This document shows, piece by piece, positions 3,953 to 43,305 of a stretch of 50,495 nucleotides of DNA. Source of the DNA: Candidatus Enterousia sp. (GTDB lineage Bacteria > Pseudomonadota > Alphaproteobacteria > Rs-D84); contig JAZSAG010000016.1 of NCBI GenBank assembly GCA_045601765.1, positions 1 through 50,495 of the forward strand, read 5' to 3'. How positions within the stretch are numbered: position 1 is the first letter of the stretch; each line of letters begins with the position of its first letter. Under the pieces are notes generated by a model. It ran no database searches, was not told the DNA's origin, and saw only the letters and a list, made by a program, of their open reading frames with translations. The translations under genes and the position numbers were made by a program.

Positions 3953-5449
3953 TTACTCGGTTGTTGTGCTTTCGACCAATTTCCATCCCATAAACGTATA
4001 CCCTGGTTTAACTGGGTCTTCTGGTAATGTAACCGGCCCATCATAATAACACATATTTTGTGTTGACGCACCACCATTATCCGGATTCCAATCGATATTG
4101 ATTGTATTTGCGGTACATGCGTATGTGATATATGCGCCACCTGGGTATTCATAAAAGGTTTCTGGTATCGGAACTATACACGACTGTGCACCAGTATTAT
4201 ACATCATAATACACATAAGCATAGCTAACCAACCCGTGCCAGCCGCTTCAAACATTGTTTCTTCGGTAATTTTTTCTGTCCCAAATGTTGAAACGTGGTC
4301 GTATTCAGGGATATCTATACCCTGAATGCTTGTATACTTAGTTTCTACTATATAATATGTAGATTCATAATACGATGTTTCACCACTGTAACTTATGCCA
4401 CGAGAAGATACATATACATACCAATCACCATTTTTTGCATTTTGACGAAATTCCGATAAATTTGGCATTTGTTTTGCCGCCGTACTGCAATCAATAGCGG
4501 TTGGATCTGCCAGAGTTGCTCCAAAATAGTCTGGCCCCTTGCCAACATCTTTAAACTTATTAAAAGTATAACAATGTTCGATGCCATCAAAATCCTTGTC
4601 ATAAAAGTAACCGCCTTCTGCTATATATGCATTACCGGACTCTTCAAGTTGGTCTGCAATAAGGTTTAGCCATGGTTGTGCCGGCATTTTTGTTGATAAA
4701 TCGTCAGGGTGTTGTATTTTATCAATAGACGTTAATATCGTTTGATATTCTATTGAGTCTTCGGGCAGTGCTTCTGTCAACTCGTTCCAATTGTCACGAA
4801 TCATTATTGCATATTCTTTTGAACTTGACCGCATTTCTTCAAGCGTGTCTTTTGGCACAAATTCTATGTACGAACCAGATTCTATTCTTAGCATAAAATC
4901 AATATAGGCATCTGTAGCCTGCTCTTCTGTTAAATCTGGTGCCTTATGATAACCTGTATCGCATTGAAAATTTATAGAACATTCCGGTGCAACTGCAGTA
5001 CATGTTCCACCGTAATATAATTTGCCGTTGGCTGTCTCATTACCATGTATTACGTTTATTGCATGGTTTGGTATAGATTGTTGGATACAGTTTACAGAAC
5101 ACCCCATATAACATTCAGATTCTGCCGTCGCGGCGGCGTCTGATGTGTAATCAGTGGGGCATGCGGTTTTACTGTTATTTGCCTCGACCGTAAAGGTTCC
5201 GCCCGGGCAATATGAACCAACGGGGCATTCGGTGCAGTTCAGTGTCGTTTCATCCAGGTATTGCCCCGCCGCGCATTCATAACTGTTCAGTGACCATGTT
5301 GCAATTGTGTTCGCGGTTGCATTATTGTCAGACACACCCAGGACGTCCACGGTACATGTGCCCGCGCCACCTGTTATAAGTCCGTCTTCTGCAAACGCGC
5401 CCGTCATGGTCATTATCAGTGTACTGGATAAAAATAAAACTTTTTTCAT
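3953..5449 (-). CDS. Secreted Cys-rich protein with C-terminal Listeria-Bacteroides (Flg_new)-type repeat; paralogue 1
   Basis: Start moved to ATG 5449 (GGGGGGA RBS; MKKVLFLSSTLIMTMTGAFA signal peptide). The N-terminal ~190 aa and C-terminal ~45 aa (NIDWNPDNG...PVKPGYTFMGWKL) match the 35781-37097 product. CxxCPxGSYCPGG motif. Confidence 0.85.
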   Translation of the reverse strand: MKKVLFLSSTLIMTMTGAFAEDGLITGGAGTCTVDVLGVSDNNATANTIATWSLNSYECAAGQYLDETTLNCTECPVGSYCPGGTFTVEANNSKTACPTDYTSDAAATAESECYMGCSVNCIQQSIPNHAINVIHGNETANGKLYYGGTCTAVAPECSINFQCDTGYHKAPDLTEEQATDAYIDFMLRIESGSYIEFVPKDTLEEMRSSSKEYAIMIRDNWNELTEALPEDSIEYQTILTSIDKIQHPDDLSTKMPAQPWLNLIADQLEESGNAYIAEGGYFYDKDFDGIEHCYTFNKFKDVGKGPDYFGATLADPTAIDCSTAAKQMPNLSEFRQNAKNGDWYVYVSSRGISYSGETSYYESTYYIVETKYTSIQGIDIPEYDHVSTFGTEKITEETMFEAAGTGWLAMLMCIMMYNTGAQSCIVPIPETFYEYPGGAYITYACTANTINIDWNPDNGGASTQNMCYYDGPVTLPEDPVKPGYTFMGWKLVESTTTE

Positions 5450-5469
5450 GGATTCCCCCCAATTGTTGC

Positions 5470-5595
5470 AAATTAAAAACCGCCACAAGTTTGACGGTCG
5501 GGGAGTTAGCAATCATTTCAACGGTGATTCTGATGTTTTCGGGTTACCCCTGTTGTATAACAATCAGCCCCCCGACTGCACACACAGTCAGGGAT
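5470..5595 (-). promoter_or_regulatory. Structured 5' leader (hairpin + alternative pairing + intrinsic terminator) of paralogue 1
   Basis: Minus-strand order: ccctgactg/cagtcgggg hairpin, GGCTG, spacer, then ctccccgacc complementary to the hairpin 3' arm. That segment overlaps terminator accgtca-aacttg-tggcggt + TTTTT. Same architecture as 35620-35736. Confidence 0.55.
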
Positions 5596-15315: not shown

Positions 15316-18300
15316 TTAGAATTCATATCTAAACTTTACACGACCTGTTTGCGATGTATAATCTGCGCGTGCTTCTATGTCGTAATTCAAAGACATTTCC
15401 AGACCGCGATAATTCATTCCGATTGCAACACCGACCTCGTTTGCGATACGTGACAGACGTTCGCCATCCAGTATATATGAATTCACACCCGGCATTGTGA
15501 CAATTGCACTGTGGTCATCAGATATTAAATCATATTTTACCGCATAGTGCATCTGGGGACGGAATACCCATCCGTTCATCAAATAGATATCAAATTCATA
15601 TCTTGTTCCCATGGCGGCCGTCAAATAATCTGCGCCGTCAAAGTGATTTTTTATTCCCAATGAATTTGTATAATCAGATGAGTTTATATGCATATATCGC
15701 ATTGATAATTCCGGGGTCAGACCACCGATAAAGTTATAACCTGTGGCGACTGTTGCACCAAATACATCTACGTCATAATCAGACGATACTGCGACGCCCA
15801 ATGCGCTGCCATCTTCTGTGTAATCGGACATAGTATAATTTGCAATTGCGTTCATATACCATGCACTGGGCTTATATTGTCCGTATACAAAGATGCTTGA
15901 TGAATCAATGTCTGTATCACGTGTATTGCCACTTACATCAGAATGTGCGAACATGTATCCCAACCCGACGGTCCATACGTCATTTATTGTGCCGTCAATT
16001 CCGGCTGTGATACCGCGGGTATAGCCATTAAAACTGTCATTCAGTTTTGTTTTGTTATATAACCCCTGGGCCCAGATTCCACCGAAATCCATATACATAT
16101 CCCCGCCGTTGCGTCCCATGCCAATCATAGACATCCGGTCTGATATTACCGACGCCAACGTGTTTTGTGTTGCGACAACTGATGATTGCGTCACAGATTT
16201 TTTTTCTGGATTTATTGCGGCGCTGGCCTGTTCAACGGCTGCGATATCTGCATCGGTCCCAGACGATAATTTTTCTTGGAATAATACAGACAGGTTGTTC
16301 AGTTGCGCAGACGATGAATCAGATGTGCTGGAAATGACCCGTGCGGCATCCGATGTCAGGTTGTTTTGTGTGGCAATATCTTGGACAGATTTCATTGTTG
16401 CTGTGACGTCGCCACCGTTCCACACCAAATCATAAATAGGATTCGTAATATCTATGTTTTCAAATGTTTGATTTCCAAAAACATGATATGTGCCGGCCTG
16501 GTCAAAGGCTAACTTTAATGTGCCACTGCCACTGAATCCGTTTTCGTTGTTTACGGTAATTTGTGCATTGTCTGCATTGCGCAGTGTCGCGTGCATTGTC
16601 CCATTCAGTATAATTTCGCCCTGGGTTATATCAGATGTTCCGATATTCAATGTTGCGCCACTGGCGATATTTAATGTCCCGTTCCCGTCGATACCGCCGT
16701 TGATGTTTGCATCTTTGTTAAAGTTGACGGTGCCGTCGTTAAAGATATCGTTTGCAACCCCATTTGCGGTATTGCCCACAAAGTTTGCAATACCGTTAAA
16801 TGTAATTGTGTCGTTGTTGTATATTGCGCCACCATTGCCACCGGATACATTATTTTCAAATGTTGTATCGCCATTAAATACAATTACAGACGTTCCTGTT
16901 GTGCCACCTTCTGCGGCGACCATGTTCCAAATCGCACCACCATCCAGTGCAGATTGATTCCCAGAAAAATAAGTTTTCCCATTCATGGTAATTTCAGAAT
17001 CTTGGCCTGCGCCATCAAACGCACGCGCAACAATTGCCCCACCGTATGCCTGGGAAGTATTTGAATTAAATCTGTTTATACTGTTGTTTGTTCCGACAAC
17101 TAATGTTGCGGTATTTGTGTTCCCGCGATTATGAATTGCCCCACCGCCACTTTTTGTTGTGCCTGTATCATTGGCGGTATTATTGCTGAATATATTTTCG
17201 TTTCCGCTGATTGTTATGTCGCCTGCATTAAATATTGCCCCGGCATATCCTGCGTCAGACGCATTGTTTAAAAAAGATACATTTGCCGCGGTCATTGTGA
17301 CGGTGCCACCATTATCAAATGCGCCTGCGGAACTGGATGTGGTATTTGTGTTAAATAATATATTTCCACTGGTATTTACTGTGACGGTACCAGCATTTTT
17401 TAATCCGCCACCATTACTGCCTGTGTTATTTGTAAATATTAAATTACCACTGGTTACATTAACCGTGCCGGCATTTACCAAAGAACCGTTCAGTGTATTT
17501 GTATTTTTATCAAATGTTGCACCATTAGCAAATGTAACAGATGCGCCACTGGCGTTGTTTAACAGTGTGCCCACACCGGTATTTTCAGAAAATGTTGCAT
17601 TGCCTAAAAATTCCAGTTCACTTGCAGAACCCGTGATATATATCGCAGACGCGCCCGCGGCAGTGTTGTTTGTAAATGTTGCACCCTGGTCAAAAGATAC
17701 GGTCCCCCCCATAATGGCCATTGCGCCACCGTTTGTGCCGGCCGAATTCCCATCAAAAGATGTTGCGCCATTAAATATTATATCACCCCCAGATATAATT
17801 GCACCGCCCTGGGATGCAGATTCATTGCCTGAAAATTCGGCAGATTTATTAAATACAATCATTCCATTTCTGTGATTTATTGCGCCGCCCCCGGCATATA
17901 CACTGGACATAGGTACTGTGGCTTTGTTGTTGTTAAATGTCGCCGTGTCATAGAAAATAATATCGGGCGATGTTGCATTCCCCAGACCGTAATTAAATAT
18001 TGCACCTGCACCATTTGGGTTGTTTGTGCTGTTAGAATCAAAAGTTGTTGTGCCATCAAAGACTATTTTGCCGCCCTGTGTATAACCTGAACCGGACAAT
18101 GATGATAACCATCCGTTTCCGATAACGCCGCCCATACCACCATTATTTAATGAATTGCCTGAAAAAGAGGATGGACCTTCAAACGTCAGAACAACGTTTG
18201 GAACGTCTTGCATATAAAACACGCCCCCGTTATTTGCAACGGTTGATGCGATGTTGTTTGCCACCGCGTTATTGTATGTTGTGTTTGCTGAAATGACCTG

Positions 18301-18396
18301 ACGTTCTGTAATGTTTTCCGCCGTTGCTGGCATAACAAATAATAATGCAGGCACTACGGAAACGCCAATCAAAGTATTGTGAATATAGTTTTTCAT
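15316..18396 (-). CDS. Autotransporter outer-membrane protein with Pmp-type (GGA[ILV]/FxxN) passenger repeats
   Basis: 1026 aa. Signal peptide MKNYIHNTLIGVSVVPALLFVMPATA. Many GGAI/GGAM/GGGL and F(x)xN motifs in an Asn/Gly/Thr-rich passenger. C-terminal ~280 aa have alternating beta-barrel sequence ending RVKFRYEF. Confidence 0.85.
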   Translation of the reverse strand: MKNYIHNTLIGVSVVPALLFVMPATAENITERQVISANTTYNNAVANNIASTVANNGGVFYMQDVPNVVLTFEGPSSFSGNSLNNGGMGGVIGNGWLSSLSGSGYTQGGKIVFDGTTTFDSNSTNNPNGAGAIFNYGLGNATSPDIIFYDTATFNNNKATVPMSSVYAGGGAINHRNGMIVFNKSAEFSGNESASQGGAIISGGDIIFNGATSFDGNSAGTNGGAMAIMGGTVSFDQGATFTNNTAAGASAIYITGSASELEFLGNATFSENTGVGTLLNNASGASVTFANGATFDKNTNTLNGSLVNAGTVNVTSGNLIFTNNTGSNGGGLKNAGTVTVNTSGNILFNTNTTSSSAGAFDNGGTVTMTAANVSFLNNASDAGYAGAIFNAGDITISGNENIFSNNTANDTGTTKSGGGAIHNRGNTNTATLVVGTNNSINRFNSNTSQAYGGAIVARAFDGAGQDSEITMNGKTYFSGNQSALDGGAIWNMVAAEGGTTGTSVIVFNGDTTFENNVSGGNGGAIYNNDTITFNGIANFVGNTANGVANDIFNDGTVNFNKDANINGGIDGNGTLNIASGATLNIGTSDITQGEIILNGTMHATLRNADNAQITVNNENGFSGSGTLKLAFDQAGTYHVFGNQTFENIDITNPIYDLVWNGGDVTATMKSVQDIATQNNLTSDAARVISSTSDSSSAQLNNLSVLFQEKLSSGTDADIAAVEQASAAINPEKKSVTQSSVVATQNTLASVISDRMSMIGMGRNGGDMYMDFGGIWAQGLYNKTKLNDSFNGYTRGITAGIDGTINDVWTVGLGYMFAHSDVSGNTRDTDIDSSSIFVYGQYKPSAWYMNAIANYTMSDYTEDGSALGVAVSSDYDVDVFGATVATGYNFIGGLTPELSMRYMHINSSDYTNSLGIKNHFDGADYLTAAMGTRYEFDIYLMNGWVFRPQMHYAVKYDLISDDHSAIVTMPGVNSYILDGERLSRIANEVGVAIGMNYRGLEMSLNYDIEARADYTSQTGRVKFRYEF

Positions 18397-28876: not shown

Positions 28877-30034
28877 ATGAAAAGAATTTTTCTGATTCTT
28901 TGTTGTTGTATTTGCATGCCATTGCATGCGGCCCAATATCGTGCGGCCTTGGTGGCAGACATTGATACAGGTGATGTTTTATACCAAGAAAATGCGAACG
29001 AGTTAAATTATCCGGCCAGTTTAACTAAAATTATGACATTGTATTTAACGTTTGATGCGCTGGAACACAAAAGACTTAGTCTGGATGATTATTTAATCGT
29101 ATCTAAATCTGCCGCAAATGCAGAACCTGTAAAACTGGGGTTGGTGGCTGGTTCTAAAATACGTGTAGAAGACGCAATCAAGGCGGTCGCGGTTTACAGT
29201 GCAAATGATGTCGCACGCGTGTTGGCTGAAAATTTAAGGGGGGGCCAGGAAGAATCTTTTGCGCAACTAATGACACGCGTTGCACGTGAAATAGGGTTGC
29301 AAAATACTAATTTTGAAAATTCATCTGGTCTGCCAGATGACGATCATTTATCAACCGCGCGTGATATTGCGTTGCTGTCAATGGCGGTATATAAACATTT
29401 TCCACAGTATTGGCATTTTTTTGGTATTAAAACATGGGTTTATAATGGAAAAACATATACTAATGGCAACCGATTGTTAACATCTTTCAGGGGTTGTGAC
29501 GGTATGAAAACAGGGTATACAAAAAAATCTAAATATTCATTGGTTGCAACGGCACATCGTGATGGTGCGCATTTGATGTCGGTTGTTTTGGGTGCTGAAA
29601 ACAAAGATGTCCGTGCAAATGTTTCTGCGCAAATGCTGAACAAGGGTTTTGCGATGTTGAAAAATGGTGCGGCGCCTGTGGTTGTATCTACGCCTGTCCA
29701 GTCGAATACTAAAACCTATTCCGCAGACGATACATTATCTGGGGCGTATAATAGCGCCACGGCCGCAGCCGCACCAACGTACGCCAAGAAAACAACCAGT
29801 GTCCAACAAAGGTCATCGGGTGGCGTCGGTGTGCAATTCGGGGCGTTTTCTTCACGCGGTTCTGCGGACGGTCATGTAAAGACCATAAAAAATATGCTTG
29901 GTGTAAATGCGGTTGTTGAACCAACAGGGACCGGGTTGTTTCGGGTGCGCGCATACGGTCTGACCGAAGAAGCGGCAAGGCAGATAAAATCTGCGGCCAC
30001 GGCAAACGGTATTGACAGTTATATTTTTCATTAG
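28877..30034 (+). CDS. D-alanyl-D-alanine carboxypeptidase (PBP5/6 class) with C-terminal SPOR domain
   Basis: Signal peptide. SLTKIMT (SxxK), SAND (SxN-like) and KTGYT (KTG) motifs. C-terminus GVQFGAFSSRGSADGHV...LFRVRAYGLTEEAARQI is SPOR-like. Confidence 0.85.
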   Translation: MKRIFLILCCCICMPLHAAQYRAALVADIDTGDVLYQENANELNYPASLTKIMTLYLTFDALEHKRLSLDDYLIVSKSAANAEPVKLGLVAGSKIRVEDAIKAVAVYSANDVARVLAENLRGGQEESFAQLMTRVAREIGLQNTNFENSSGLPDDDHLSTARDIALLSMAVYKHFPQYWHFFGIKTWVYNGKTYTNGNRLLTSFRGCDGMKTGYTKKSKYSLVATAHRDGAHLMSVVLGAENKDVRANVSAQMLNKGFAMLKNGAAPVVVSTPVQSNTKTYSADDTLSGAYNSATAAAAPTYAKKTTSVQQRSSGGVGVQFGAFSSRGSADGHVKTIKNMLGVNAVVEPTGTGLFRVRAYGLTEEAARQIKSAATANGIDSYIFH

Positions 30035-35619: not shown

Positions 35620-35736
35620 CAAATCTCCTGACTTAGACGGTCAGGAGGGCTGCGAATATATTGAATAAGCACACAATACTTTGTGATTGTAGTCAACCTC
35701 CTGACCACTGTTTTAATCGGTGGTTTTGTTTTTTTG
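35620..35736 (+). promoter_or_regulatory. Structured 5' leader (hairpin + alternative pairing + intrinsic terminator) of paralogue 2
   Basis: ctcctgac (35625-32)/gtcaggag (35640-47) hairpin, then GGCTG. cctcctgac (35697-705) is complementary to the hairpin 3' arm and overlaps terminator gaccactg-ttttaat-cggtggtt + T-run (35703-35735). Confidence 0.55.
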
Positions 35737-35780
35737 CAAAACCCCGATACAGACAGAAAAAACAAGGGGAGAATGCACAC

Positions 35781-37097
35781 ATGAAAAAAGTTTTATTTTT
35801 ATCCAGTATGCTGATTATGACAGCTTTTAACGCATTTGCGGACGACGCAGCGCCAAACACAGACAAAAAAATTACGGGCGGTGCGGGTACATGTACGGCG
35901 GACGTCCTGGGCGTATCCGACAATAACGCAACGGCAAACACCATTGCAACATGGTCGTTGAACAGTTATGATTGCGCGGCGGGACAATATCTGGATGAAA
36001 CAACATTAGAATGCATCGAATGCCCAACCGGTTCGTATTGTCCGGGCGGCACGTTCACGGTCGAGGCAAATAACAGTAAAACCGCATGTCCCGCCGATTA
36101 TACATCAGACGCCGCCGCCACGGCAGAATCTGAATGTTACATGGGGTGCGAATTGGTGTGTACACAACAAACATGTCCCGAACATTCTGAAAACTGCACG
36201 CACGGCGTGTCTGTTATTAATGGCGCGCAATATTATGGGCAATCAACATGTGACGCATTACCAAGATTTTGTAGTATGGATTTCGCATGCAAAACAGGTT
36301 ATACAAAAGTATCAACAATAATGAATTATATCTTGAATGATATATATGCTAAAACATTTGATGAATCTGGTATAGATTCACCGGTGGTGCATTTTGATAC
36401 GTGCGATGCAACAATGGAAACATGCACCGCAATTTTACAGTGGCGAATGCCTGAATTTGGGGACACAATAATTGCAATAATGTTTGAATACCGCTTTAAT
36501 AATGATAAAAATATTATACAAAATAATAAAATTAAAGACTTGGATATTAACGGACGTGGCGAACCGATACAAATATCTGTATTATCATATGATACAAATA
36601 TTTCTATGGATAATAATTTTTCCGTTATCTATGCACGCCCATCTGCATTTGTATTATTGACCCAAAATCTGATGTCTGAATTAAGCATATTACAAACAGA
36701 ACTTGAAAAAGATTTTGCAGATGGTTTAATTACAGAAGAAGAAGCGACGGAAAAATTTTCTGAGTTTGAAGCCAGATTATTAAAACCTATGAATTTACCC
36801 TGGATGGCTTTGATTAATTCTGAAGAACCTATTAGTTATAATGATCCAGAGGGTTGGGCGGAATTTGCAGTACAAATGTTTCTATTGCTTACTATGCAAA
36901 CCCCATTTTTTGTTGATGCAGTATATGGTGATATATCATACGTAAGGTGCGACAAGAATATAATCAATATCAACTGGAATCCGGATAATGGGAAAGATAC
37001 GATACAAGATATGTGTTATTACGATGGTGCAATCAGAGTACCAGACGACCCAGTTAAACCAGGATACACGTTTATGGGTTGGAAATTGGCCGAGTAA
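35781..37097 (+). CDS. Secreted Cys-rich protein with C-terminal Listeria-Bacteroides (Flg_new)-type repeat; paralogue 2
   Basis: Start moved to ATG 35781 (AAGGGGA RBS; MKKVLFLSSMLIMTAFNAFA signal peptide). N-terminal ~190 aa and C-terminal NINWNPDNG...PVKPGYTFMGWKL are shared with 3953-5449; the centre is unrelated. Confidence 0.85.
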   Translation: MKKVLFLSSMLIMTAFNAFADDAAPNTDKKITGGAGTCTADVLGVSDNNATANTIATWSLNSYDCAAGQYLDETTLECIECPTGSYCPGGTFTVEANNSKTACPADYTSDAAATAESECYMGCELVCTQQTCPEHSENCTHGVSVINGAQYYGQSTCDALPRFCSMDFACKTGYTKVSTIMNYILNDIYAKTFDESGIDSPVVHFDTCDATMETCTAILQWRMPEFGDTIIAIMFEYRFNNDKNIIQNNKIKDLDINGRGEPIQISVLSYDTNISMDNNFSVIYARPSAFVLLTQNLMSELSILQTELEKDFADGLITEEEATEKFSEFEARLLKPMNLPWMALINSEEPISYNDPEGWAEFAVQMFLLLTMQTPFFVDAVYGDISYVRCDKNIININWNPDNGKDTIQDMCYYDGAIRVPDDPVKPGYTFMGWKLAE

Positions 37098-37292: not shown

Positions 37293-37339
37293 CACTAACC
37301 ACTTCCCACTTCCCACTAACCACTAATCACTAACCACTT
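37293..37339 (-). repeat. Degenerate short tandem repeats (reverse complement of the 3379-3434 family)
   Basis: cactaaccacttcccacttcccactaaccactaatcactaaccactt. Confidence 0.7.
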
Positions 37340-37661
37340 TATACAATTCATTTGGGGTTTGGATAAATATGTTACGCATTCCAATCGCATATTTGCAAAA
37401 TTGTACACACGTCCACGCGTGGCACGTATCTAAATCGCGGGGCAGGTCGCATGGCAAATACACAAATCGCCAACCGTGTGCCGTCAGTATTTTTATATCG
37501 CGCATATTTAATTTTATCTGTGCAATATTTCCGCGTGATATAAATTGGTGCATAATCAGGTTATCTGACGTCATTTCAATTGGCGCACAGTGTTTTATTT
37601 TACCACATAAAATGCGTGGCAATATTTTGGAAGTTTTTTCGGCAAATGCAATAATAATCAT
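37323..37661 (-). CDS. Hypothetical protein
   Basis: ORF shortened to ATG 37661 (AAGGA RBS 8 nt upstream). 112 aa, no family recognised. Its last codons and stop are supplied by the tandem repeats. Confidence 0.4.
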   Translation of the reverse strand: MIIIAFAEKTSKILPRILCGKIKHCAPIEMTSDNLIMHQFISRGNIAQIKLNMRDIKILTAHGWRFVYLPCDLPRDLDTCHAWTCVQFCKYAIGMRNIFIQTPNELYKVVSD

Positions 37662-37719: not shown

Positions 37720-38061
37720 TTAATCAATCCAGCCTCGTTTTTGTGCCGCATCATGCAGAATATTCATTGCGCGTCTCCATTGGTCGGCGGCGCGATTTTC
37801 GGCCCAAATATGTTGATGTGGTGCGCGTCTTTTGTCACCAAATTGTTTCATTATCATTAACTGTTCATCGCTAAGTTGCCCCGATAAGTATAATTTTGTA
37901 ATCATTGTTTCCACGTCCAGTATTTCACATGGTCGCCGTGTTTGAACTGTGCGCATACGTGCAAAATCATTTCGTACGGCCTTGGAATATAAAAACCAAA
38001 ACCACATTTGTTCGGCTGATTGAAATTTTTCGACAGATACCATTGTCATAACAGAGTTCAT
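37720..38061 (-). CDS. Hypothetical protein (possible small regulator)
   Basis: 113-aa ORF. WFWFLYSKAV... and LYLSGQLSDEQLMIMKQFG are reminiscent of a sigma-r4/LuxR-type helix pair, but I cannot assign a family. Confidence 0.45.
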   Translation of the reverse strand: MNSVMTMVSVEKFQSAEQMWFWFLYSKAVRNDFARMRTVQTRRPCEILDVETMITKLYLSGQLSDEQLMIMKQFGDKRRAPHQHIWAENRAADQWRRAMNILHDAAQKRGWID

Positions 38062-38320
38062 TTTTCTTTCTCCTTTGGTTGTTTTGTTATTGTTTACATA
38101 TATAATCTAAGAAAAGATTCCTGTGAAACACTACAACCAATGGTTGAAGTGTGAATCGGAAAACAGATTCGGAATTGCAATTTATGCTTTATGCGGCGAA
38201 TCGTTTTTCTTTACCTGATATATACATGTCTTAGATAAAAAAAAGTGCGCAACATTGCGCACGAAAAAGTATTGTTTTTTGTATGTTTTTGTCTTGTTTT
38301 TTATCCTTTTGGTTATTATA

Positions 38321-38347
38321 TTTAAAAACCGCCGTTACGGCGGTTTG
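38321..38347 (-). terminator. Rho-independent terminator of the virB8-10 operon
   Basis: On the minus strand caaaccgcc-gtaac-ggcggttttt, 3 nt after the virB10 stop. Confidence 0.75.
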
Positions 38348-38349
38348 AA

Positions 38350-40740
38350 TTACAGTATTGGCGGGAAACAATCTCCCCCAGATTCTGGACAACAGTTGAA
38401 TCCCATTTCGCCCATATCAGTATATATTTCACCCGCACAGCAACCATTTGCATCTGGCAGACTGCCATCTTCACAGGTTAAAACTGCGGCGGCTGGTTCT
38501 TGCGATGTTGATTCAGGTGCATCAAATGGATTTTGAATACTGCCATCATCATTATATGTCAGACCCAAAACCTGTTCATTATACGCCTGGTCACCCAGGA
38601 TTCCGAACGAACCACTGACGCTGTTATCGAACGATTGCGTTTGGTATTGGTTTTGGAATTGTTCTTGTTGGCTTTGGAACAAGGCATCTTGTTTTGCATT
38701 ATTCTTGGCCTGATAATTCAATGATTCGCAATAGAACAAAATGGTCCTGTAATCATATCCCTCGGTGGTGCCATCTACGGCAATGTTACTATTTGCTGTC
38801 CACAAACCTTTTGAATCCTTGGTACAATATTTTTGCATATCAAATGATCTGACCTGGCCGACCCATGAACCGTCATCTTTGCGTGTCACGCGTTCTTGTT
38901 CTGATTTCCATCCATCATAACGCGGCGCATTGCCATATCCCAACGCGCATTTTTTGCCATTACCATCACCGCATGACGCGATTAAATCAACAGGTGAATA
39001 TACCGTGATACGTGTGCCGGCGGCAATTGTAAACGGTGGAACGGTATTATCCATCATATCGACCAATAATTTCTGGGCAACCTGATTCCATGCAGTTATA
39101 ATTTCATTCTTTGCCAGTTCAGACGAACGTACTGTTCCACTTTGTACGACGGTATTATTATCCAAATCAATCTGATTGACGAACGCATCAGATACAGGCG
39201 CAATTAAATTTACCGCCGCAGGCACAATCGCAGTTAACATTGGCATAAAGAATTGTTCCAGATAATCTGAACTGCCATAACCGGGTATCCCAGAACGTCC
39301 CTGGGCGTCGCCTGAAAATGGTGCATTACCGCCATTAAAATTAAACTCTATACCATTTGGCAATATAAATTGATACCATCTTATATTCATGCGTCCGACC
39401 GTTGTATATGGCCCCGGCAATTCACCGGTGACATATCCCATCAACAATGTTCCGGTCGGTATTATAACATTACGGCCATTATCAGAATAAACATTTCTGT
39501 CCACTGTCGCACGCACAGGCAGAAAGCTGTTGGCTAATGCCTCGGGGTCTGCGCGAACATCAGACACAATTGTCGCAGGAATTGGTTTATATTGGCGCAA
39601 AACAAATTGTCTGTCATATTGCACAGATGATATCACAGAATCACCCGAAGATGTGTAATCGATATCCTCTTGTGGTTTTTGACGCAATACCAGTCGTTCT
39701 ACACCACCACTATCTTCTGGTATATCAGATTGTGTTGCGCGGTTTACTGTTTTTATCGCCGGTGTATTTGACAATTCTGGCATAATCCCAGACAGCACCG
39801 CACTGAACCCAATATGTTCTGCATCTGTACCGATTTTTTTGCCTGGATTGTCTATATCAGTAATAATGCCGTTATCTGGGTTATATATACCGGTTGGGTT
39901 ATCGCATTGTGTATCAGAAAAAGGATGAAACTTATATGTTCCTGCCTGGGGCTTGATCCAGCCAATTTGACGACCATAATTATCATATCCCGCAAATGCA
40001 TAATCTGAACATGCCTCGGGCGGGCGGGTGTACACAGGTTCCACCGGCTGTGAAAAAGACGCGATTGGTGGCGCAATTGATTCAATTTCTGATATAAATT
40101 CGTCTTCATAATAATCTGGTTCTGGTTCATATTCAGAACTGTAATCTGTTTCGTAAACTGCGGACGTATCGTATTCTTCATATGAATCTGGTTTTGCAAC
40201 AGGCGTTGAAACAGGCGTTGGTTCCACAACCACCGGGGATGTCGCGCCCAATGTCACAACAATCTTGGATGTTTTTTGCATTGCGTCATCCGCATCTGCA
40301 TCGTGCCATACAACAGATACAATATTTTGTTCAACCTTGCCTGCGACCGTCGGTTCATATTTCATATTTATCGAACATGTTATTGTATTGTCAATCATAC
40401 CCATTTGGCTGCACGCACTGGCAACAGAAAAACCATTTCTTTCGTTGTCTGGGGTCACAGACAGTATTTTGACAGGCGCCGTTGCAGATAATTCAACCTT
40501 TTGTTGTTTTTTATCGCCAACCAATACATCTGCCCAATTTATAACATCTGGTGAAATATTTAGTTCTGCGGACACACCATGATGTTGCCCCAGCCCCGCC
40601 TGACCAGCATTTTTTTTACCAGAAATCAGCAACGTTAACAAGATTAATACAATAATAAACGCAGCCCCCAGCAGTAACCACTGAACATTTTTTGGTATAT
40701 TCTGACGAATTTCTGATAAACTTATTTTTAGTTTTCCCAT
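38350..40740 (-). CDS. virB10: VirB10/TrbI-family type IV secretion protein with extra N- and C-terminal modules
   Basis: 796 aa. TM anchor (WLLLGAAFIIVLILLTLLISG). TrbI core (IIPTGTLLMGYVTGELPGP...IRWYQFILPNGIEFNF...DAQGRSGIPGYGSSDYLEQFFMPML...AAGTRITVYSPVDL) plus additional domains (see findings). Confidence 0.85.
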   Translation of the reverse strand: MGKLKISLSEIRQNIPKNVQWLLLGAAFIIVLILLTLLISGKKNAGQAGLGQHHGVSAELNISPDVINWADVLVGDKKQQKVELSATAPVKILSVTPDNERNGFSVASACSQMGMIDNTITCSINMKYEPTVAGKVEQNIVSVVWHDADADDAMQKTSKIVVTLGATSPVVVEPTPVSTPVAKPDSYEEYDTSAVYETDYSSEYEPEPDYYEDEFISEIESIAPPIASFSQPVEPVYTRPPEACSDYAFAGYDNYGRQIGWIKPQAGTYKFHPFSDTQCDNPTGIYNPDNGIITDIDNPGKKIGTDAEHIGFSAVLSGIMPELSNTPAIKTVNRATQSDIPEDSGGVERLVLRQKPQEDIDYTSSGDSVISSVQYDRQFVLRQYKPIPATIVSDVRADPEALANSFLPVRATVDRNVYSDNGRNVIIPTGTLLMGYVTGELPGPYTTVGRMNIRWYQFILPNGIEFNFNGGNAPFSGDAQGRSGIPGYGSSDYLEQFFMPMLTAIVPAAVNLIAPVSDAFVNQIDLDNNTVVQSGTVRSSELAKNEIITAWNQVAQKLLVDMMDNTVPPFTIAAGTRITVYSPVDLIASCGDGNGKKCALGYGNAPRYDGWKSEQERVTRKDDGSWVGQVRSFDMQKYCTKDSKGLWTANSNIAVDGTTEGYDYRTILFYCESLNYQAKNNAKQDALFQSQQEQFQNQYQTQSFDNSVSGSFGILGDQAYNEQVLGLTYNDDGSIQNPFDAPESTSQEPAAAVLTCEDGSLPDANGCCAGEIYTDMGEMGFNCCPESGGDCFPPIL

Positions 40741-40768
40741 TTAATAAACCCACTGCGTATATTTTTTA

Positions 40769-42298
40769 CTATTGCATTCTGACAACACTGCATGATTCTT
40801 GGCCACCGGTGTATTTAATCAGTTTATCACACAGTGTTTGCGCGGTGCTGATATCTGAAATTGGCCCGATACGCAGACGATATACCTTGGCCGCAGAAGA
40901 ACCCGCACCCAAATCGCCAACACCTTCGGCGTCTACTGCAAAGAATGCCATTTCTTCGTATGGTTTTAATATACCATTACCTTCGCCACCGCTGAATTTA
41001 GCCAACAATGCGGTCCAATGATCTTCCAGTGCCTTTACAGATGTATCTGATTTTAATTCAACCGCGACACCATTTTGATTGCTGGTAATCAGTGGAATAT
41101 TATTCTGTGGCAAATATGCACCTGCGGTATTACGCACAGTTGGTAACATGTTGACCACACTGCCTGATGATAACGCCGGTTGTGGTGCGTTATATGTGCC
41201 ATACCCCGCAGGCATATAATAACCTGCACCTGTTACCGGGTTAACTGTTGCAGTGTCTCCCATATACATTGGTGTTCCGGTATAATTCATGCCCATGCTC
41301 ATTGCGGCCATATCCTGGGTATATGCGATATTGTTCAAAGATTGCCCAGACAACATGCTTTGCGCAACATTGGCCTCGGCCAATGCCATAACAGATGCGG
41401 TATCTGCAATCAAGAACGGCTTTTCACGTCTTTTAATACAAACAATTCTTTGTCCACTGCGCAAAACCATATCACCCACAGCCTCGACAATCAATAAACG
41501 ACCATCTTCGCCATCTGTGCGGAACCCAACAGGGGATTCGCCACCTTCGACCAATAATGATACAACCGGTCTTTGGGTCATTGATATAACCTTGTCGCCA
41601 AAGTCGATATATGTAAAGATTCTGTCGCGCCATACACGTTCAGGGGCGATAACATAGTCATCTGGATTTGGTACAAATATATCTAAATCAAAACGAAATT
41701 CAGATGGATCAATTTTCATTGATTTTATCCAACCATAATCTTCGCCATCAACGCCCACGGTATTTGTTGATTTGGCTTGTTTGTTGAATATAGATTTTGC
41801 GCCACTGGATGTTGTTTTTGCACCGGCCATTGGCAATGCGCTATTGCCATCTAATAATACATCAACATGTGAATATGTAACCTCGCTGGCGTTTGATGGT
41901 TCGCTGCGCAGATAGAAAACGTATTTATTCCCAGATTGCCCCGTTACAATTAGATTTGTATCAGACCCCTGATTGCCGGACGCCGGTGATATAAACATAG
42001 TTCTGTCACCCTGGGTTGCGTCTATTTGAAATGCGCCGCTGTCACCAACAATTGCGTCTGCAATTTGTTCCCCGTTGGGCAGGTTAATCATTGTTACCAT
42101 ACCATTGCGTAATTTGACGGGCAGAACCGAACCTTCGGACCAAGACAGTTGTGCGTATCCTGGTTTAACACTGCCTGCGGCCATATTGGCACTTGGGTTA
42201 TCCCACGCCGCCTGTATTCCGGCGTACCCCGGTAACATAAACAACCCCGTCATGCAAATAACAGAAATATTCCATTTTAATATTTTTACAAGTGTCAT
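40769..42298 (-). CDS. virB9: VirB9/TrbG/CagX-family type IV secretion protein with C-terminal SPOR-like domain
   Basis: Start moved to ATG 42298 (signal peptide MTLVKILKWNISVICMTGLFMLPGYAG, AAGGA RBS). VirB9 N-domain (TNLIVTGQSGNKYVFYL) and C-domain (RIFTYIDFGDK...LRSGQRIVCIKR). About 200 aa extension ends in a SPOR-like fold. Confidence 0.85.
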   Translation of the reverse strand: MTLVKILKWNISVICMTGLFMLPGYAGIQAAWDNPSANMAAGSVKPGYAQLSWSEGSVLPVKLRNGMVTMINLPNGEQIADAIVGDSGAFQIDATQGDRTMFISPASGNQGSDTNLIVTGQSGNKYVFYLRSEPSNASEVTYSHVDVLLDGNSALPMAGAKTTSSGAKSIFNKQAKSTNTVGVDGEDYGWIKSMKIDPSEFRFDLDIFVPNPDDYVIAPERVWRDRIFTYIDFGDKVISMTQRPVVSLLVEGGESPVGFRTDGEDGRLLIVEAVGDMVLRSGQRIVCIKRREKPFLIADTASVMALAEANVAQSMLSGQSLNNIAYTQDMAAMSMGMNYTGTPMYMGDTATVNPVTGAGYYMPAGYGTYNAPQPALSSGSVVNMLPTVRNTAGAYLPQNNIPLITSNQNGVAVELKSDTSVKALEDHWTALLAKFSGGEGNGILKPYEEMAFFAVDAEGVGDLGAGSSAAKVYRLRIGPISDISTAQTLCDKLIKYTGGQESCSVVRMQ

Positions 42299-42323
42299 AC
42301 CAATCCTTCCCTTGTTTTTGTTT

Positions 42324-43001
42324 TTATTCCGCCAGCAATCCTGTATCCAGCGGATCACCATTGCCAGATGTTATTTCATATTCAGAAACACGTATCCCCA
42401 GTGGGTTGTCAATTTTACTTGCCCACTTAATGATATTCTCCTTTTGTGTTTCAATCTTTATCCGTATTGTATAATCTTTTTGTGCCACAGGTCCAGCAGA
42501 ATCTTCACAAAAATACCTAAATTTTACCTGATAAGTATCTTGGCCATATGCACTGGACAATAATAACGGTTCTGTATCAAAGTATACATCGCACTTTACA
42601 TCATAATTCGGTGCCCCGGTCATTATTTCATTAAACGCAAATGTGTTCGCGAATTTAGAATAAACGTTGTCCGTGGAAATAGTTCTGACAAACCCGTCAA
42701 GACTGTTCCATTTTTTATTCATCACCTTGGCATTATTAATAATTTCGTTGCGGTGTCTGACATATTCGCGTACCAAAGACTTTTTGTATATGTCCAAATT
42801 TTCACTTTCTGGCGGCATTTGTTCCAGTTTTACACTTTGGTCTGCGCGCATAGTTGTTGTCAAAAAGAATATTTGCGGTCTGTTCAGTGGGAACATTTTG
42901 TACAACGTAAACGCCAATACCCCCAGTACAACCAATGCGGTTGCCAACACAAATGTCATCAATCTTGACAGCAAAACAGGCGGTTTTAAAGGCTGTTGCA
43001 C
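42324..43001 (-). CDS. virB8: VirB8-family type IV secretion protein
   Basis: 225 aa, GTG start with GGGGAG RBS 6 nt upstream. N-terminal TM, then NTF2-like periplasmic domain (SLVREYVRHRNEI...YQVKFRYF...YTIRIKIE). Position directly upstream of virB9/virB10. Confidence 0.75.
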   Translation of the reverse strand: MQQPLKPPVLLSRLMTFVLATALVVLGVLAFTLYKMFPLNRPQIFFLTTTMRADQSVKLEQMPPESENLDIYKKSLVREYVRHRNEIINNAKVMNKKWNSLDGFVRTISTDNVYSKFANTFAFNEIMTGAPNYDVKCDVYFDTEPLLLSSAYGQDTYQVKFRYFCEDSAGPVAQKDYTIRIKIETQKENIIKWASKIDNPLGIRVSEYEITSGNGDPLDTGLLAE

Positions 43002-43110
43002 GAATTTCTCCCCTTTTAATAAAATGATTGTAGAAAAAAACAGATAACTTATGCAAGGAAAATTTTTGCATAATCAAATAAATAAAATAAAAGAATATGA
43101 AAAAATGTTC

Positions 43111-43139
43111 TTGCCTGGGGCGACGAAAAATATTATAAT
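43111..43139 (+). promoter_or_regulatory. Candidate sigma70 promoter for tRNA-Trp/secE-nusG
   Basis: TTGCCT (43111-16), 17-nt spacer, TATAAT (43134-39), about 90 nt upstream of tRNA-Trp. Confidence 0.4.
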
Positions 43140-43231
43140 ATTTCCGCTTGATTTTTTGTATTGGTGTGCTATTCTGTCGCAGACTATTGTATGGCATGCG
43201 GTACATCAGACGGGTGTTGTATTTGGTTTAC

Positions 43232-43305
43232 AGGGGCATAGTTCAACGGTAGAATATCGGTCTCCAAAACCGCGGATGAGGGTTCGATTCCTTCTGCCCC
43301 TGCCA
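43232..43305 (+). tRNA. tRNA-Trp (anticodon CCA)
   Basis: 74-nt cloverleaf: AGGGGCA acceptor, anticodon loop CTCCAAA, GAGGG-TTCGATT-CCTTC T-arm, encoded CCA. Canonical position upstream of secE. Confidence 0.9.

What the first reader, a model, noticed from the sequence alone, without database searches (positions are those of the whole stretch)
38350..43001. Stand-alone virB8-virB9-virB10 core-complex operon, no other T4SS parts in 50 kb
Three tightly spaced minus-strand genes (25- and 28-nt spacers, each with its own RBS) encode VirB8-, VirB9- and VirB10-family proteins. The unit ends in a strong intrinsic terminator 3 nt after virB10. It is bounded upstream by a divergent tRNA-Trp. No virB1-7, virB11, virD4, relaxase or pilin gene is visible anywhere in the window. 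Rickettsiales rvh clusters usually continue virB8-9-10-11-virD4, and trb operons have trbL before trbF. Both large subunits also carry extra domains (see next two findings). This is either a scattered, remodelled T4SS island or an envelope-spanning scaffold reused for something else.
Basis: partly seen in the sequence, partly recalled or inferred. Interest (0 to 1): 0.75.

Follow-up and report, generated by a model that had tools for sequence, protein, structure and literature searches.

The report
Conserved remodelled VirB8-9-10 secretion island
Three adjacent genes encode the outer shell of a type IV secretion machine, each large subunit carrying extra domains; this block sits at the same chromosomal spot in a whole lineage of uncultured gut Alphaproteobacteria, with none of the motor genes nearby, and I could not check whether those lie elsewhere in the genome.

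Summary
Window 38350-43001 (minus strand) holds virB8-like (225 aa), virB9-like (509 aa) and virB10-like (796 aa) genes with 25- and 28-nt spacers. A hairpin terminator lies 3 nt after the last stop and a divergent tRNA-Trp lies upstream. No other T4SS gene was detected in the 50 kb.

It is not a one-off. In 66 related loci (816 kb) the block B8-B9-B10 plus two small unknown genes lies between secE-nusG-rplKAJL and yidC. It is under purifying selection as strong as its housekeeping neighbours.

VirB9 carries a C-terminal SPOR (peptidoglycan-binding) domain. VirB10 carries an N-terminal ASH/PapD-like Ig domain, a small disulfide beta-domain and a 210-aa Cys-rich C-terminal extension.

Two sister classes share the SPOR-VirB9. 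One keeps B8-B7-B8-B9-B10-VirB11, the order of the Rickettsiales rvh islet, next to yidC. So the trio is most likely a derived islet of an rvh-like scattered T4SS that lost VirB11 locally (about 0.55).

An ATPase-less, peptidoglycan-anchored envelope scaffold remains possible (about 0.25). Deciding needs a whole-genome scan for VirB4/B6/B11/D4, which these tools could not do. No paper describing it turned up in my searches. I rate it a new variant of a known kind, of moderate interest.

The parts
42324..43001 (-). virB8-like gene (225 aa): N-terminal TM helix plus periplasmic VirB8 domain with an NPLG motif (aa 199-202)
   Evidence: Pfam VirB8 E=2.8e-10, covering aa 15-211. A family profile hits solved VirB8 structures: TraE 6e-12, Bartonella VirB8/TrwG 1e-10, Brucella VirB8 1e-8. 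GTG start with GGGGAG RBS.
40769..42298 (-). virB9-like gene (509 aa): signal peptide, VirB9 N- and C-terminal domains (aa ~48-295), Met/Gly/Tyr-rich linker, C-terminal SPOR domain
   Evidence: Pfam CagX E=8.3e-24. The AF2 N-domain matches TrwF/VirB9 NTD at TM 0.80-0.84. dN/dS is 0.04 against L002. Over 120 homologues are at least 75% identical.
40772..41071 (-). SPOR-like peptidoglycan-binding domain at the C-terminus of VirB9 (aa ~410-509)
   Evidence: Pfam SPOR E=0.0027 in the window protein, and a hit in 31 of 32 lineage homologues (best 9.5e-6). The AF2 model shows a beta-alpha-beta-beta-alpha-beta fold at pLDDT ~78, matching the RlpA SPOR domain at TMt 0.70. Also flagged in sister-class VirB9s.
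38350..40740 (-). virB10-like gene (796 aa), multi-domain
   Evidence: Pfam TrbI E=9.9e-18 and NCBIfam VirB10 4.7e-16. Foldseek hits CagY, TrwE, ComB10, Xanthomonas VirB10 and TraF at E 6e-9 to 4e-6. Over 120 homologues cover 100% of the length.
40237..40572 (-). ASH/PapD/MSP-like Ig domain of VirB10 (aa 57-168), just outside the inner-membrane anchor
   Evidence: AF2 pLDDT ~86. Foldseek hits MSP, CEP192 ASH and HYDIN PapD-like domains. NCBIfam choice-of-anchor D E=6e-6. Also present in classes II and III.
39811..40011 (-). small beta-domain of VirB10 (aa 244-310) with invariant Cys244 and Cys279
   Evidence: AF2 pLDDT ~80. Columns are invariant in 40 homologues. The region recurs in class II. 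In class III giant VirB10s it gives only multiple weak, non-significant repeat-like hits.
38983..39615 (-). TrbI/VirB10 C-terminal barrel (aa 376-586) with two predicted long antenna helices (aa 494-527 and 540-565; AF2 pLDDT <50 across 469-571)
   Evidence: This is the only part that matches plasmid VirB10s, at about 30% identity.
38353..38982 (-). lineage-specific C-terminal extension of VirB10 (aa 587-796). It has conserved Cys pairs, a long helix, and a terminal 6-Cys module (aa ~753-796; window 38353-38484)
   Evidence: All cysteines are invariant. The extension is absent from plasmid VirB10s and from class II. The 6-Cys module also occurs as 2-3 tandem copies in small secreted proteins.
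38326..38346 (-). intrinsic-terminator hairpin 3 nt after the virB10 stop
   Evidence: 9-bp stem, -13.5 kcal/mol, z = -4.1.
43002..43231 (.). divergent intergenic region between virB8 and tRNA-Trp; presumed operon promoter
   Evidence: Position only. The sigma-70-like consensus matches are not significant evidence. Inferred.
43232..43305 (+). tRNA-Trp(CCA), the upstream boundary; first gene of the secE-nusG-rplKAJL block
37720..38061 (-). h113: conserved 113-aa protein with no predicted signal peptide, found directly downstream of virB10 in nearly every class I locus that extends that far (absent in L068); function unknown
   Evidence: dN/dS 0.08. No hit in Pfam, NCBIfam or PHROGs.
37323..37661 (-). 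h143: conserved ~112-aa Cys-containing protein following h113 in class I loci; function unknown
   Evidence: dN/dS 0.12. No family hit.

Best explanation
The three genes encode the VirB8 assembly factor and the VirB9/VirB10 outer-membrane core complex of a chromosomal, vertically inherited type IV secretion system. That system belongs to an undescribed SPOR-VirB9 family found in uncultured, mostly gut-associated Alphaproteobacteria.

Proposed working model, inferred by homology with solved VirB, Trw and Cag complexes. VirB10 is anchored in the inner membrane by its N-terminal helix and crosses the periplasm. Its TrbI barrel oligomerises with VirB9, and its two antenna helices form the outer-membrane pore. 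VirB8 nucleates the inner-membrane side. The added SPOR domain of VirB9 clamps the ring to peptidoglycan glycan strands. The Ig-like, beta and Cys-rich modules of VirB10 decorate the periplasmic and outer faces, possibly replacing the missing VirB7 lipoprotein.

The island descends from an rvh-like islet (B8-B7-B8-B9-B10-B11) located next to yidC. In this lineage the islet has lost B7, one B8 copy and VirB11.

By analogy with the scattered rvh islets of Rickettsiales, the energising ATPases and inner-membrane channel (VirB3/4/6, perhaps B11/D4) are expected elsewhere in the genome. This last point is inferred, not shown.
For: Family membership of all three proteins is supported.

The block is fixed in the lineage. 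All 66 related loci (816 kb) conserve the B8-B9-B10-h113-h143 order. Wherever the contig extends far enough, the block lies between rplKAJL-nusG and yidC-lspA-kefB-ksgA-recR-dacC-pyk, with insertions in L002 and L006 and h113/h143 missing in L068.

dN/dS is 0.04-0.12, the same range as neighbouring housekeeping genes.

Sister classes share full-length SPOR-VirB9 at E 1e-112 to 1e-130, against 3e-8 for Agrobacterium VirB9. Each class is monophyletic in 60 of 60 bootstraps.

Class III keeps B8, a 58-62-aa lipoprotein, B8, B9, B10 and a VirB11-type ATPase. This is the gene order reported for the R. typhi rvh islet, whose remaining genes lie in separate islets (PMC4676284). In L101 that island abuts yidC, as the window's does.

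A class II contig has a VirB11 gene directly after the module.

The sequence spanning the predicted VirB10 antenna helices is nearly invariant across homologues, although AF2 confidence there is low (pLDDT <50). The 20-aa cytoplasmic N-tail is conserved, with P16, Q20 and W21 invariant.
Against: No VirB4, B3, B6, B11, D4, pilin or relaxase was found in the 50-kb window, in 66 class I loci, or in about 15 class II loci.

VirB4 was not seen even within 10 kb of the class III islands.

The rvh islets of Rickettsiales keep B11 and D4 with B8-10, and here they are gone.

None of the relatives I searched carries a name linking it to a characterised T4SS.

The acquisition of a SPOR domain and of new VirB10 modules would also fit a change of function.
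Confidence: 0.55

Rival explanations
1. Autonomous, ATPase-less envelope-spanning module. VirB8/9/10 were retained after the rest of the T4SS was lost. They now act as a peptidoglycan-anchored complex linking inner membrane, wall and outer membrane, either as a trans-envelope staple or as a passive or gated outer-membrane conduit. SPOR provides wall attachment and the new VirB10 domains provide the new function.
For: No motor or channel genes lie near the module in any of about 80 loci of classes I and II, although T4SS genes usually cluster. VirB11 was lost from the ancestral position. There are lineage-wide domain gains: SPOR, Ig-like, and a Cys-rich tail that also exists in free secreted proteins. 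VirB9 conservation is at housekeeping level, unusual for a host-interaction machine.
Against: I know of no precedent for a functional VirB8-10 set without VirB4. Relatives retain VirB11. The conserved cytoplasmic tail of VirB10 suggests a cytoplasmic or inner-membrane partner. Absence from the rest of the genome was not tested.
Confidence: 0.25
2. ComB-like DNA-uptake apparatus. The module would be the outer part of a competence T4SS that brings DNA into the periplasm for ComEC/DprA, as in Helicobacter. That kind of system needs no VirB11 or VirD4.
For: The best sequence hits of the VirB10 profile among solved structures are the Helicobacter proteins CagY (1e-4) and ComB10 (7e-3). NCBIfam ComB10 scores 3.5e-12. 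One JGI homologue of VirB9 is named 'ComB9 competence protein'. comEC lies 13 kb away in the window, and dprA abuts the module in L010.
Against: The VirB10 model scores higher than the ComB10 model. The comEC and dprA proximity is not conserved across loci. ComB systems still need ComB4, B2, B3 and B6, and none was seen. Sister classes carry VirB11, which ComB lacks.
Confidence: 0.1
3. Decaying remnant of an integrative conjugative element that once inserted at tRNA-Trp.
For: The island is adjacent to a tRNA gene. A PcfJ-like gene lies downstream in L002-L004. T4SS genes are typical cargo of such elements.
Against: All reading frames are intact. dN/dS is 0.04-0.12. The position is identical in 66 loci that have diverged to 53-85% identity in housekeeping proteins. 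There is no integrase, relaxase or repeat boundary, and GC content matches the surroundings.
Confidence: 0.03

Closest known systems
Rickettsiales vir homolog (rvh) T4SS islet rvhB7-rvhB8-rvhB9-rvhB10-rvhB11(-rvhD4)
   Same: Both are chromosomal, vertically inherited and embedded among housekeeping genes. In both, T4SS genes are split into islets. The class III sisters of this island have the same B8-B7-B8-B9-B10-B11 order (PMC4676284).
   Different: The window's island lacks B7, the second B8, B11 and D4. Its VirB9 has a SPOR domain and its VirB10 has Ig-like, beta and Cys-rich additions. No direct sequence comparison with Rickettsia proteins was possible here.
Canonical VirB7/VirB9/VirB10 outer-membrane core complex (pKM101 Tra, R388 Trw, Agrobacterium VirB)
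   Same: The VirB9 N-domain fold and the VirB10 barrel are supported by the models, the two antenna helices are predicted at low confidence, and VirB8 has the NPXG motif.
   Different: The TrbI core is only about 30% identical. There is no VirB7 gene, there are additional domains, and the island is not part of an 11-gene operon.
Helicobacter ComB (comB6-10) and Cag (CagX/CagY) systems
   Same: These give the closest sequence matches of the VirB10 profile among solved structures. ComB shows that a B8-B9-B10 block can sit apart from the ATPase operon and work without B11 and D4. CagY is a precedent for an enlarged VirB10, as in class III.
   Different: The matches are weak (E 1e-4 to 7e-3). There is no ComB6 or B7 here. 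The lineage is alphaproteobacterial, and sister classes carry VirB11.
Xanthomonas X-T4SS core complex (VirB7 with extra N0 domain)
   Same: It is an example of a core complex decorated by an added periplasmic domain. Its VirB9 and VirB10 are among the structural hits.
   Different: In Xanthomonas the decoration is on VirB7, and the system sits in a complete cluster.
SPOR-domain proteins (RlpA, FtsN, DamX)
   Same: The C-terminus of VirB9 is predicted to have the SPOR fold.
   Different: Known SPOR proteins are division or wall-remodelling factors. My two-term search for VirB9 with 'SPOR domain' found no report of such a fusion.

Membership tests
VirB8 family | Bitopic protein: N-terminal TM helix plus periplasmic NTF2-like domain matching the VirB8 profile | tested here: met
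   Pfam VirB8 E=2.8e-10 over aa 15-211, 40.9 bits against a cut-off of 23.2. The profile hits solved VirB8, TraE and TrwG structures at 6e-12 to 8e-8.
VirB8 family | NPXG motif near the C-terminus (PMC4676284) | tested here: met
   NPLG at aa 199-202. N, P and G are invariant across the three classes.
VirB9/CagX family | Secreted protein with VirB9 N-terminal and C-terminal beta-sandwich domains | tested here: met
   Pfam CagX 84.9 bits against a cut-off of 34.2, covering profile positions 5-197 of 198. The N-domain model matches TrwF NTD at TM 0.80-0.84, rmsd 2.0 A. The C-domain is invariant in sequence but was modelled poorly, at pLDDT ~24.
VirB10/TrbI family | N-terminal TM anchor, extended Pro-rich or acidic linker, C-terminal TrbI beta-barrel | tested here: met
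   Pfam TrbI 65.1 bits against a cut-off of 35. Foldseek hits CagY, TrwE, ComB10, Xanthomonas VirB10 and TraF. TM helix at aa 17-39 and linker at aa 169-240.
VirB10/TrbI family | Two-helix antenna projection that forms the outer-membrane pore | tested here: inconclusive
   Two long helices are predicted at aa 494-527 and 540-565 and are nearly invariant in 40 homologues. Model confidence there is low in the monomer. Pore formation is not testable in silico here.
Type IV secretion system (any MPF class) | A VirB4-family ATPase, the only ubiquitous T4SS protein (PMC4027160) | not testable with these tools
   None was found in the window or in any fetched locus. Whole genomes could not be scanned.
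Type IV secretion system (any MPF class) | Inner-membrane channel components (VirB3, VirB6) and a pilin encoded with the system | tested here: not met
   Absent from the 50-kb window and from within 10 kb of the module in about 90 loci. This is a locus-level result only.
Rickettsiales rvh T4SS | Islet containing B8-B9-B10 together with B11 and D4 | tested here: not met
   The window and all 66 class I loci lack B11 and D4 at the island. Class III sisters have B11 but no D4 nearby.
Rickettsiales rvh T4SS | Duplicated, divergent B8, B9 and B4 paralogues and several B6 copies, scattered in islets | tested here: inconclusive
   There are no paralogues in the window. Class III has two divergent B8 copies flanking a B7-like lipoprotein. 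Islets elsewhere in the genome could not be examined.
Helicobacter-type ComB competence T4SS | comB6-comB10 operon plus comB2-comB4 operon; best match to ComB profiles | tested here: not met
   There is no B6 or B7 at the locus. The NCBIfam VirB10 model (58.9 bits) outscores ComB10 (46.2 bits), and both are far below their equivalog cut-offs.
SPOR domain | About 70-aa RNP-like beta-alpha-beta-beta-alpha-beta fold matching the SPOR profile | tested here: met
   Pfam SPOR gives 18.5 bits in the window protein, just below the cut-off of 21. It hits 31 of 32 homologues, best 9.5e-6. The predicted fold matches RlpA SPOR at TMt 0.65-0.70. Glycan binding was not tested.

The most novel reading that the evidence does not exclude
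A whole order-level lineage of gut Alphaproteobacteria, and a sister class, has kept only VirB8, VirB9-SPOR and a decorated VirB10, with no VirB4, B6, B11 or D4 anywhere in the genome. These proteins would have been exapted into a peptidoglycan-anchored complex that spans the envelope and works without a T4SS motor. That would be the first T4SS core complex with a function independent of secretion ATPases.
Probability: 0.25. Interest if true: 0.8.

Novelty: new variant of a known kind. Interest (0 to 1): 0.5.

Why it matters
These bacteria are common, uncultured members of human, ruminant, rodent and termite gut communities, and nothing is known of their cell biology.

A core-complex island that is as conserved as ribosomal neighbours, and that carries a wall-binding SPOR domain and new VirB10 modules, defines a previously undescribed branch of T4SS architecture related to the Rickettsiales rvh system.

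If the motors exist elsewhere, the island extends the 'scattered islet' organisation beyond the recognised Rickettsiales. It also offers natural variants for studying how core complexes attach to peptidoglycan: giant VirB10s, a SPOR-VirB9, and a complex without VirB7.

If the motors are absent, it would be a clear case of a secretion-machine scaffold re-used for another envelope function.

Tried and rejected
1. The exact window VirB10 is not on record in the contig index, so the source genome could not be recovered.

No genome-wide search for VirB4 was then possible.

3. I considered recognising co-resident VirB4 genes by matching contig lengths in homologue tables. I dropped this because only the top 120 hits are listed.

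4. Five literature searches found nothing on this module. They covered VirB8/9/10 with 'orphan', RF32 with T4SS, CAG-239, VirB9 with 'SPOR domain', and VirB8/9/10/4 with Alphaproteobacteria MAGs.

5. h113, h143, the class II fourth gene (S4) and the class III upstream genes gave no hit in Pfam, NCBIfam or PHROGs. S4 is not homologous to h113 or h143.

6. I tested whether the VirB10 C-terminal extension is a fused copy of S4. No similarity was seen by eye, and the idea was not pursued.

7. Looking up names for the nearest non-family VirB10 representatives returned only unnamed metagenomic proteins. The rvh affinity therefore rests on gene order, not on a phylogeny with Rickettsia references.

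8. The first bootstrap mapping on the rooted NJ tree gave meaningless values. I replaced it with split counts.

9. dS is saturated (above 1) in all pairs, so the dN/dS values are only comparative.

10. The AF2 monomer models are of low overall confidence (pLDDT 56 and 46). I used only the well-predicted domains.


Full report
**1. What is in the sequence**

The minus strand of window 38350-43001 holds three ORFs of 225, 509 and 796 aa. With the MTLVK start for the middle gene, the spacers are 25 and 28 nt. The first gene starts at a GTG, 7 nt after a GGGGAG RBS.

The products hit the three expected families:
- VirB8: E=2.8e-10
- CagX/VirB9: E=8.3e-24
- TrbI/VirB10: E=9.9e-18

NCBIfam agrees, giving VirB9 4.7e-16, VirB10 4.7e-16 and ComB10 3.5e-12, with TrbI and TrbG much weaker.

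Three nt after the virB10 stop lies a 9-bp G+C-rich hairpin at 38326-38346. Its dG is -13.5 kcal/mol, z = -4.1, and it runs into UUUUUAAAU. A second hairpin with a T8 run follows at 38245-38262.

Upstream, 230 nt away and divergent, is tRNA-Trp(CCA) at 43232-43305. It is followed by secE, nusG and rplKAJL, and probably by rpoB; rpoB was not annotated here and is inferred from L001, where it follows rplL.

The rest of the 50 kb is housekeeping:
- DNA and RNA functions: gyrA, rmuC, recR, ksgA, truA, comEC
- Translation and metabolism: def, fmt, pyrG, pyk
- Envelope: an AcrB/OEP efflux pump, an autotransporter, dacC-SPOR, kefB, lspA, yidC
- Two Cys-rich Flg_new surface proteins

phmmer with a full Agrobacterium VirB1-B11/D4/relaxase set found only the three genes themselves. 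It was run against every stop-to-stop ORF of at least 50 aa.

**2. It is a lineage-wide fixture, not a local oddity**

More than 120 proteins cover 100% of the 796-aa VirB10 at 52-98% identity. More than 120 cover the VirB9 at 75-89% identity. Where named, they come from MAGs called 'Alphaproteobacteria bacterium', from goat omasum and other gut samples.

Contexts came from contig look-ups, a genome scan and a metagenome scan. They gave 66 related loci, 816 kb in all. In essentially every one the order is the same:
- upstream: rplL-rplJ-rplA-rplK-nusG(-secE)
- the block: B8-B9-B10-h113-h143
- downstream: yidC-lspA-kefB-ksgA-recR-dacC-pyk

h113 and h143 are two small proteins of unknown function with no family hits. 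They correspond to window 37720-38061 and 37323-37661.

Against L002, dN/dS is 0.11 for B8, 0.04 for B9 and 0.12 for B10. Neighbouring housekeeping genes give 0.05-0.16. dS is saturated, so these values are only comparative.

This rules out a decaying mobile-element remnant, despite the tRNA neighbour and a PcfJ-like gene inserted in L002-L004.

**3. Anatomy of the proteins**

VirB8 is ordinary. It has a TM helix, the VirB8 domain and an NPLG motif (the motif is defined in PMC4676284).

VirB9 has these parts:
- A signal peptide.
- A VirB9 N-domain. The model matches TrwF NTD at TM 0.80-0.84.
- An almost invariant C-domain.
- A low-complexity linker.
- A C-terminal domain of about 100 aa, predicted as beta-alpha-beta-beta-alpha-beta at pLDDT ~78. 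It matches the RlpA SPOR domain at TMt 0.70. Pfam SPOR hits 31 of 32 homologues.

VirB10 has these parts:
- A conserved 20-aa cytoplasmic tail and a TM helix.
- An ASH/PapD/MSP-like Ig domain at aa 57-168, pLDDT 86.
- An acidic, Pro-rich linker.
- A small beta-domain at aa 244-310 with an invariant Cys pair.
- The TrbI barrel at aa 376-586, with two long predicted antenna helices (low AF2 confidence, pLDDT <50).
- A 210-aa extension with invariant cysteines, ending in a 6-Cys module.

Only the TrbI core matches plasmid VirB10s, at about 30% identity. Among solved structures, only CagY and ComB10 are detectable by sequence.

The 6-Cys module also occurs as two or three tandem copies in small secreted proteins from metagenomes.

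**4. Relatives outside the lineage**

An exhaustive search of 50%-identity representatives, followed by a profile search, uncovered two sister groups.

Class II is named 'Rickettsiales bacterium' or 'bacterium' in termite- and mouse-gut MAGs. It has B8, B9(SPOR), B10 (660-720 aa, with the same Ig and beta domains but no Cys extension) and a small secreted protein. The module is again embedded in housekeeping genes, with no other T4SS Pfam within 10 kb.

Class III has the following order:
- B8
- a 58-62-aa lipoprotein with a LAAC lipobox
- a second B8
- B9(SPOR)
- a giant VirB10 of 2250-2360 aa, or a split version
- a VirB11-type ATPase

Its VirB9 matches my class I+II profile over the full length at E 1e-112 to 1e-130. 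Agrobacterium VirB9 reaches only 3e-8.

Each class is monophyletic in 60 of 60 NJ bootstraps. Classes I and II group together in 39 of 60.

The class III order equals the R. typhi rvh arrangement, which is rvhB8-II | rvhB7-rvhB8-I-rvhB9-II-rvhB10-rvhB11 | rvhD4. The remaining rvh genes of R. typhi lie in separate islets (PMC4676284). The rvh system is regarded as a Rickettsiales signature (PMC11077975).

Two further links:
- In L101 the class III island ends VirB11-|engB-yidC, the same yidC neighbourhood as the window's island.
- One class II contig has a VirB11 gene directly after the module. It is 68% identical to class III VirB11, E 2e-24.

**5. Interpretation**

The most economical reading is that the trio is a derived islet of an rvh-like, chromosomally scattered T4SS. 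The common ancestor had B8-B7-B8-B9-B10-B11 beside yidC. The window's lineage lost B7, one B8 and B11 from the islet and gained h113 and h143 there. It also elaborated VirB10.

The mechanism is inferred from solved Trw, Tra, Cag and Xanthomonas complexes, and was not tested here:
- VirB10 would bridge the inner and outer membranes.
- VirB10 and VirB9 would form the ring and pore.
- SPOR would fasten the ring to glycan strands.
- VirB8 would organise the inner-membrane side.

That the ATPases and inner-membrane channel are encoded elsewhere is inferred only by analogy with rvh.

I could not test this because the genome-scale tools were exhausted, and no VirB4 was seen even near class III islands. 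A motor-less, exapted envelope scaffold therefore remains a live alternative. It is supported by the complete absence of motor genes from about 80 class I and II loci, by the local loss of VirB11, and by the domain gains. A ComB-like DNA-uptake role is a weaker variant.

**6. Novelty and score**

NCBI already labels these proteins 'TrbG/VirB9 family' and 'TrbI/VirB10 family'. My searches turned up no paper describing the SPOR-VirB9 fusion, the decorated VirB10, the fixed three-gene island or its sister classes.

It is a new variant of a known kind. Interest is moderate at 0.5. It would rise substantially if whole-genome scans show that no VirB4 is present.

Noticed in passing
window 37720-38061(-) and 37323-37661(-): Two small genes (h113, with no predicted signal peptide; h143, Cys-containing) follow virB10 in nearly every class I locus that extends that far (L068 lacks them), under purifying selection. 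They have no hit in Pfam, NCBIfam or PHROGs. They occupy the position where class III relatives have VirB11.
   Followed up: partly
window 38353-38484(-) (VirB10 aa ~753-796); proteins P0322, P0348, P0375, P0395, P0408; locus L097: The terminal 6-Cys module (C-x-PDxNGCCxGExYTDMGxxGFNCCPxxGGDCFPP) also occurs as 2-3 tandem copies in small signal-peptide proteins. One of these (P0348) lies next to a MacB/FtsX-type ABC transporter. This is an undescribed disulfide-rich module family.
   Followed up: partly
L086-L088, L091-L095, L098, L101: Class III islands encode giant VirB10 proteins of 2250-2360 aa, or two split genes. The precomputed Pfam annotation reports Bflower_2 repeats in them. The profile of the small beta-domain from the window's VirB10 gives only multiple weak, non-significant repeat-like hits there. 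Seven co-directional secreted proteins without any family hit precede the island in L098. An ankyrin-repeat protein lies beside it in L092.
   Followed up: partly
L008, L012, L014 (class II): The class II module is divergently adjacent to an N-type ATP synthase operon (AtpR and ATPase_gene1 present) in three loci. In L010 dprA abuts it. It is unclear whether this is more than chance.
   Followed up: no
window 3953-5512(-) and 35661-37097(+); L006 4457-7606(-): Cys-rich surface proteins with Listeria-Bacteroides (Flg_new) repeats flank the region. In L006 a 1049-aa paralogue is inserted between nusG and virB8. This looks like a variable surface-protein family in the lineage.
   Followed up: no
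L002 7098-9053, and the corresponding position in L003 and L004: A PcfJ-like gene (651 aa) is inserted downstream of h143 in the closest relatives but is absent from the window. It is a small indel hotspot between the island and yidC.
   Followed up: no
proteins P0304 and P0310: Two metagenomic proteins join an unrelated N-terminal region to the C-terminal part of this VirB10 (from aa ~554 or ~660). They could be assembly chimeras or real domain shuffling.
   Followed up: no
window 15316-18396(-): A 1026-aa autotransporter with a Chlamydia polymorphic-membrane-protein repeat. It is another surface factor in this genome region.
   Followed up: no
window 28877-30034(+): The D-Ala-D-Ala carboxypeptidase DacC in the same window also ends in a SPOR domain (E=2.5e-6). 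SPOR fusions to envelope proteins may therefore be common in this organism.
   Followed up: no
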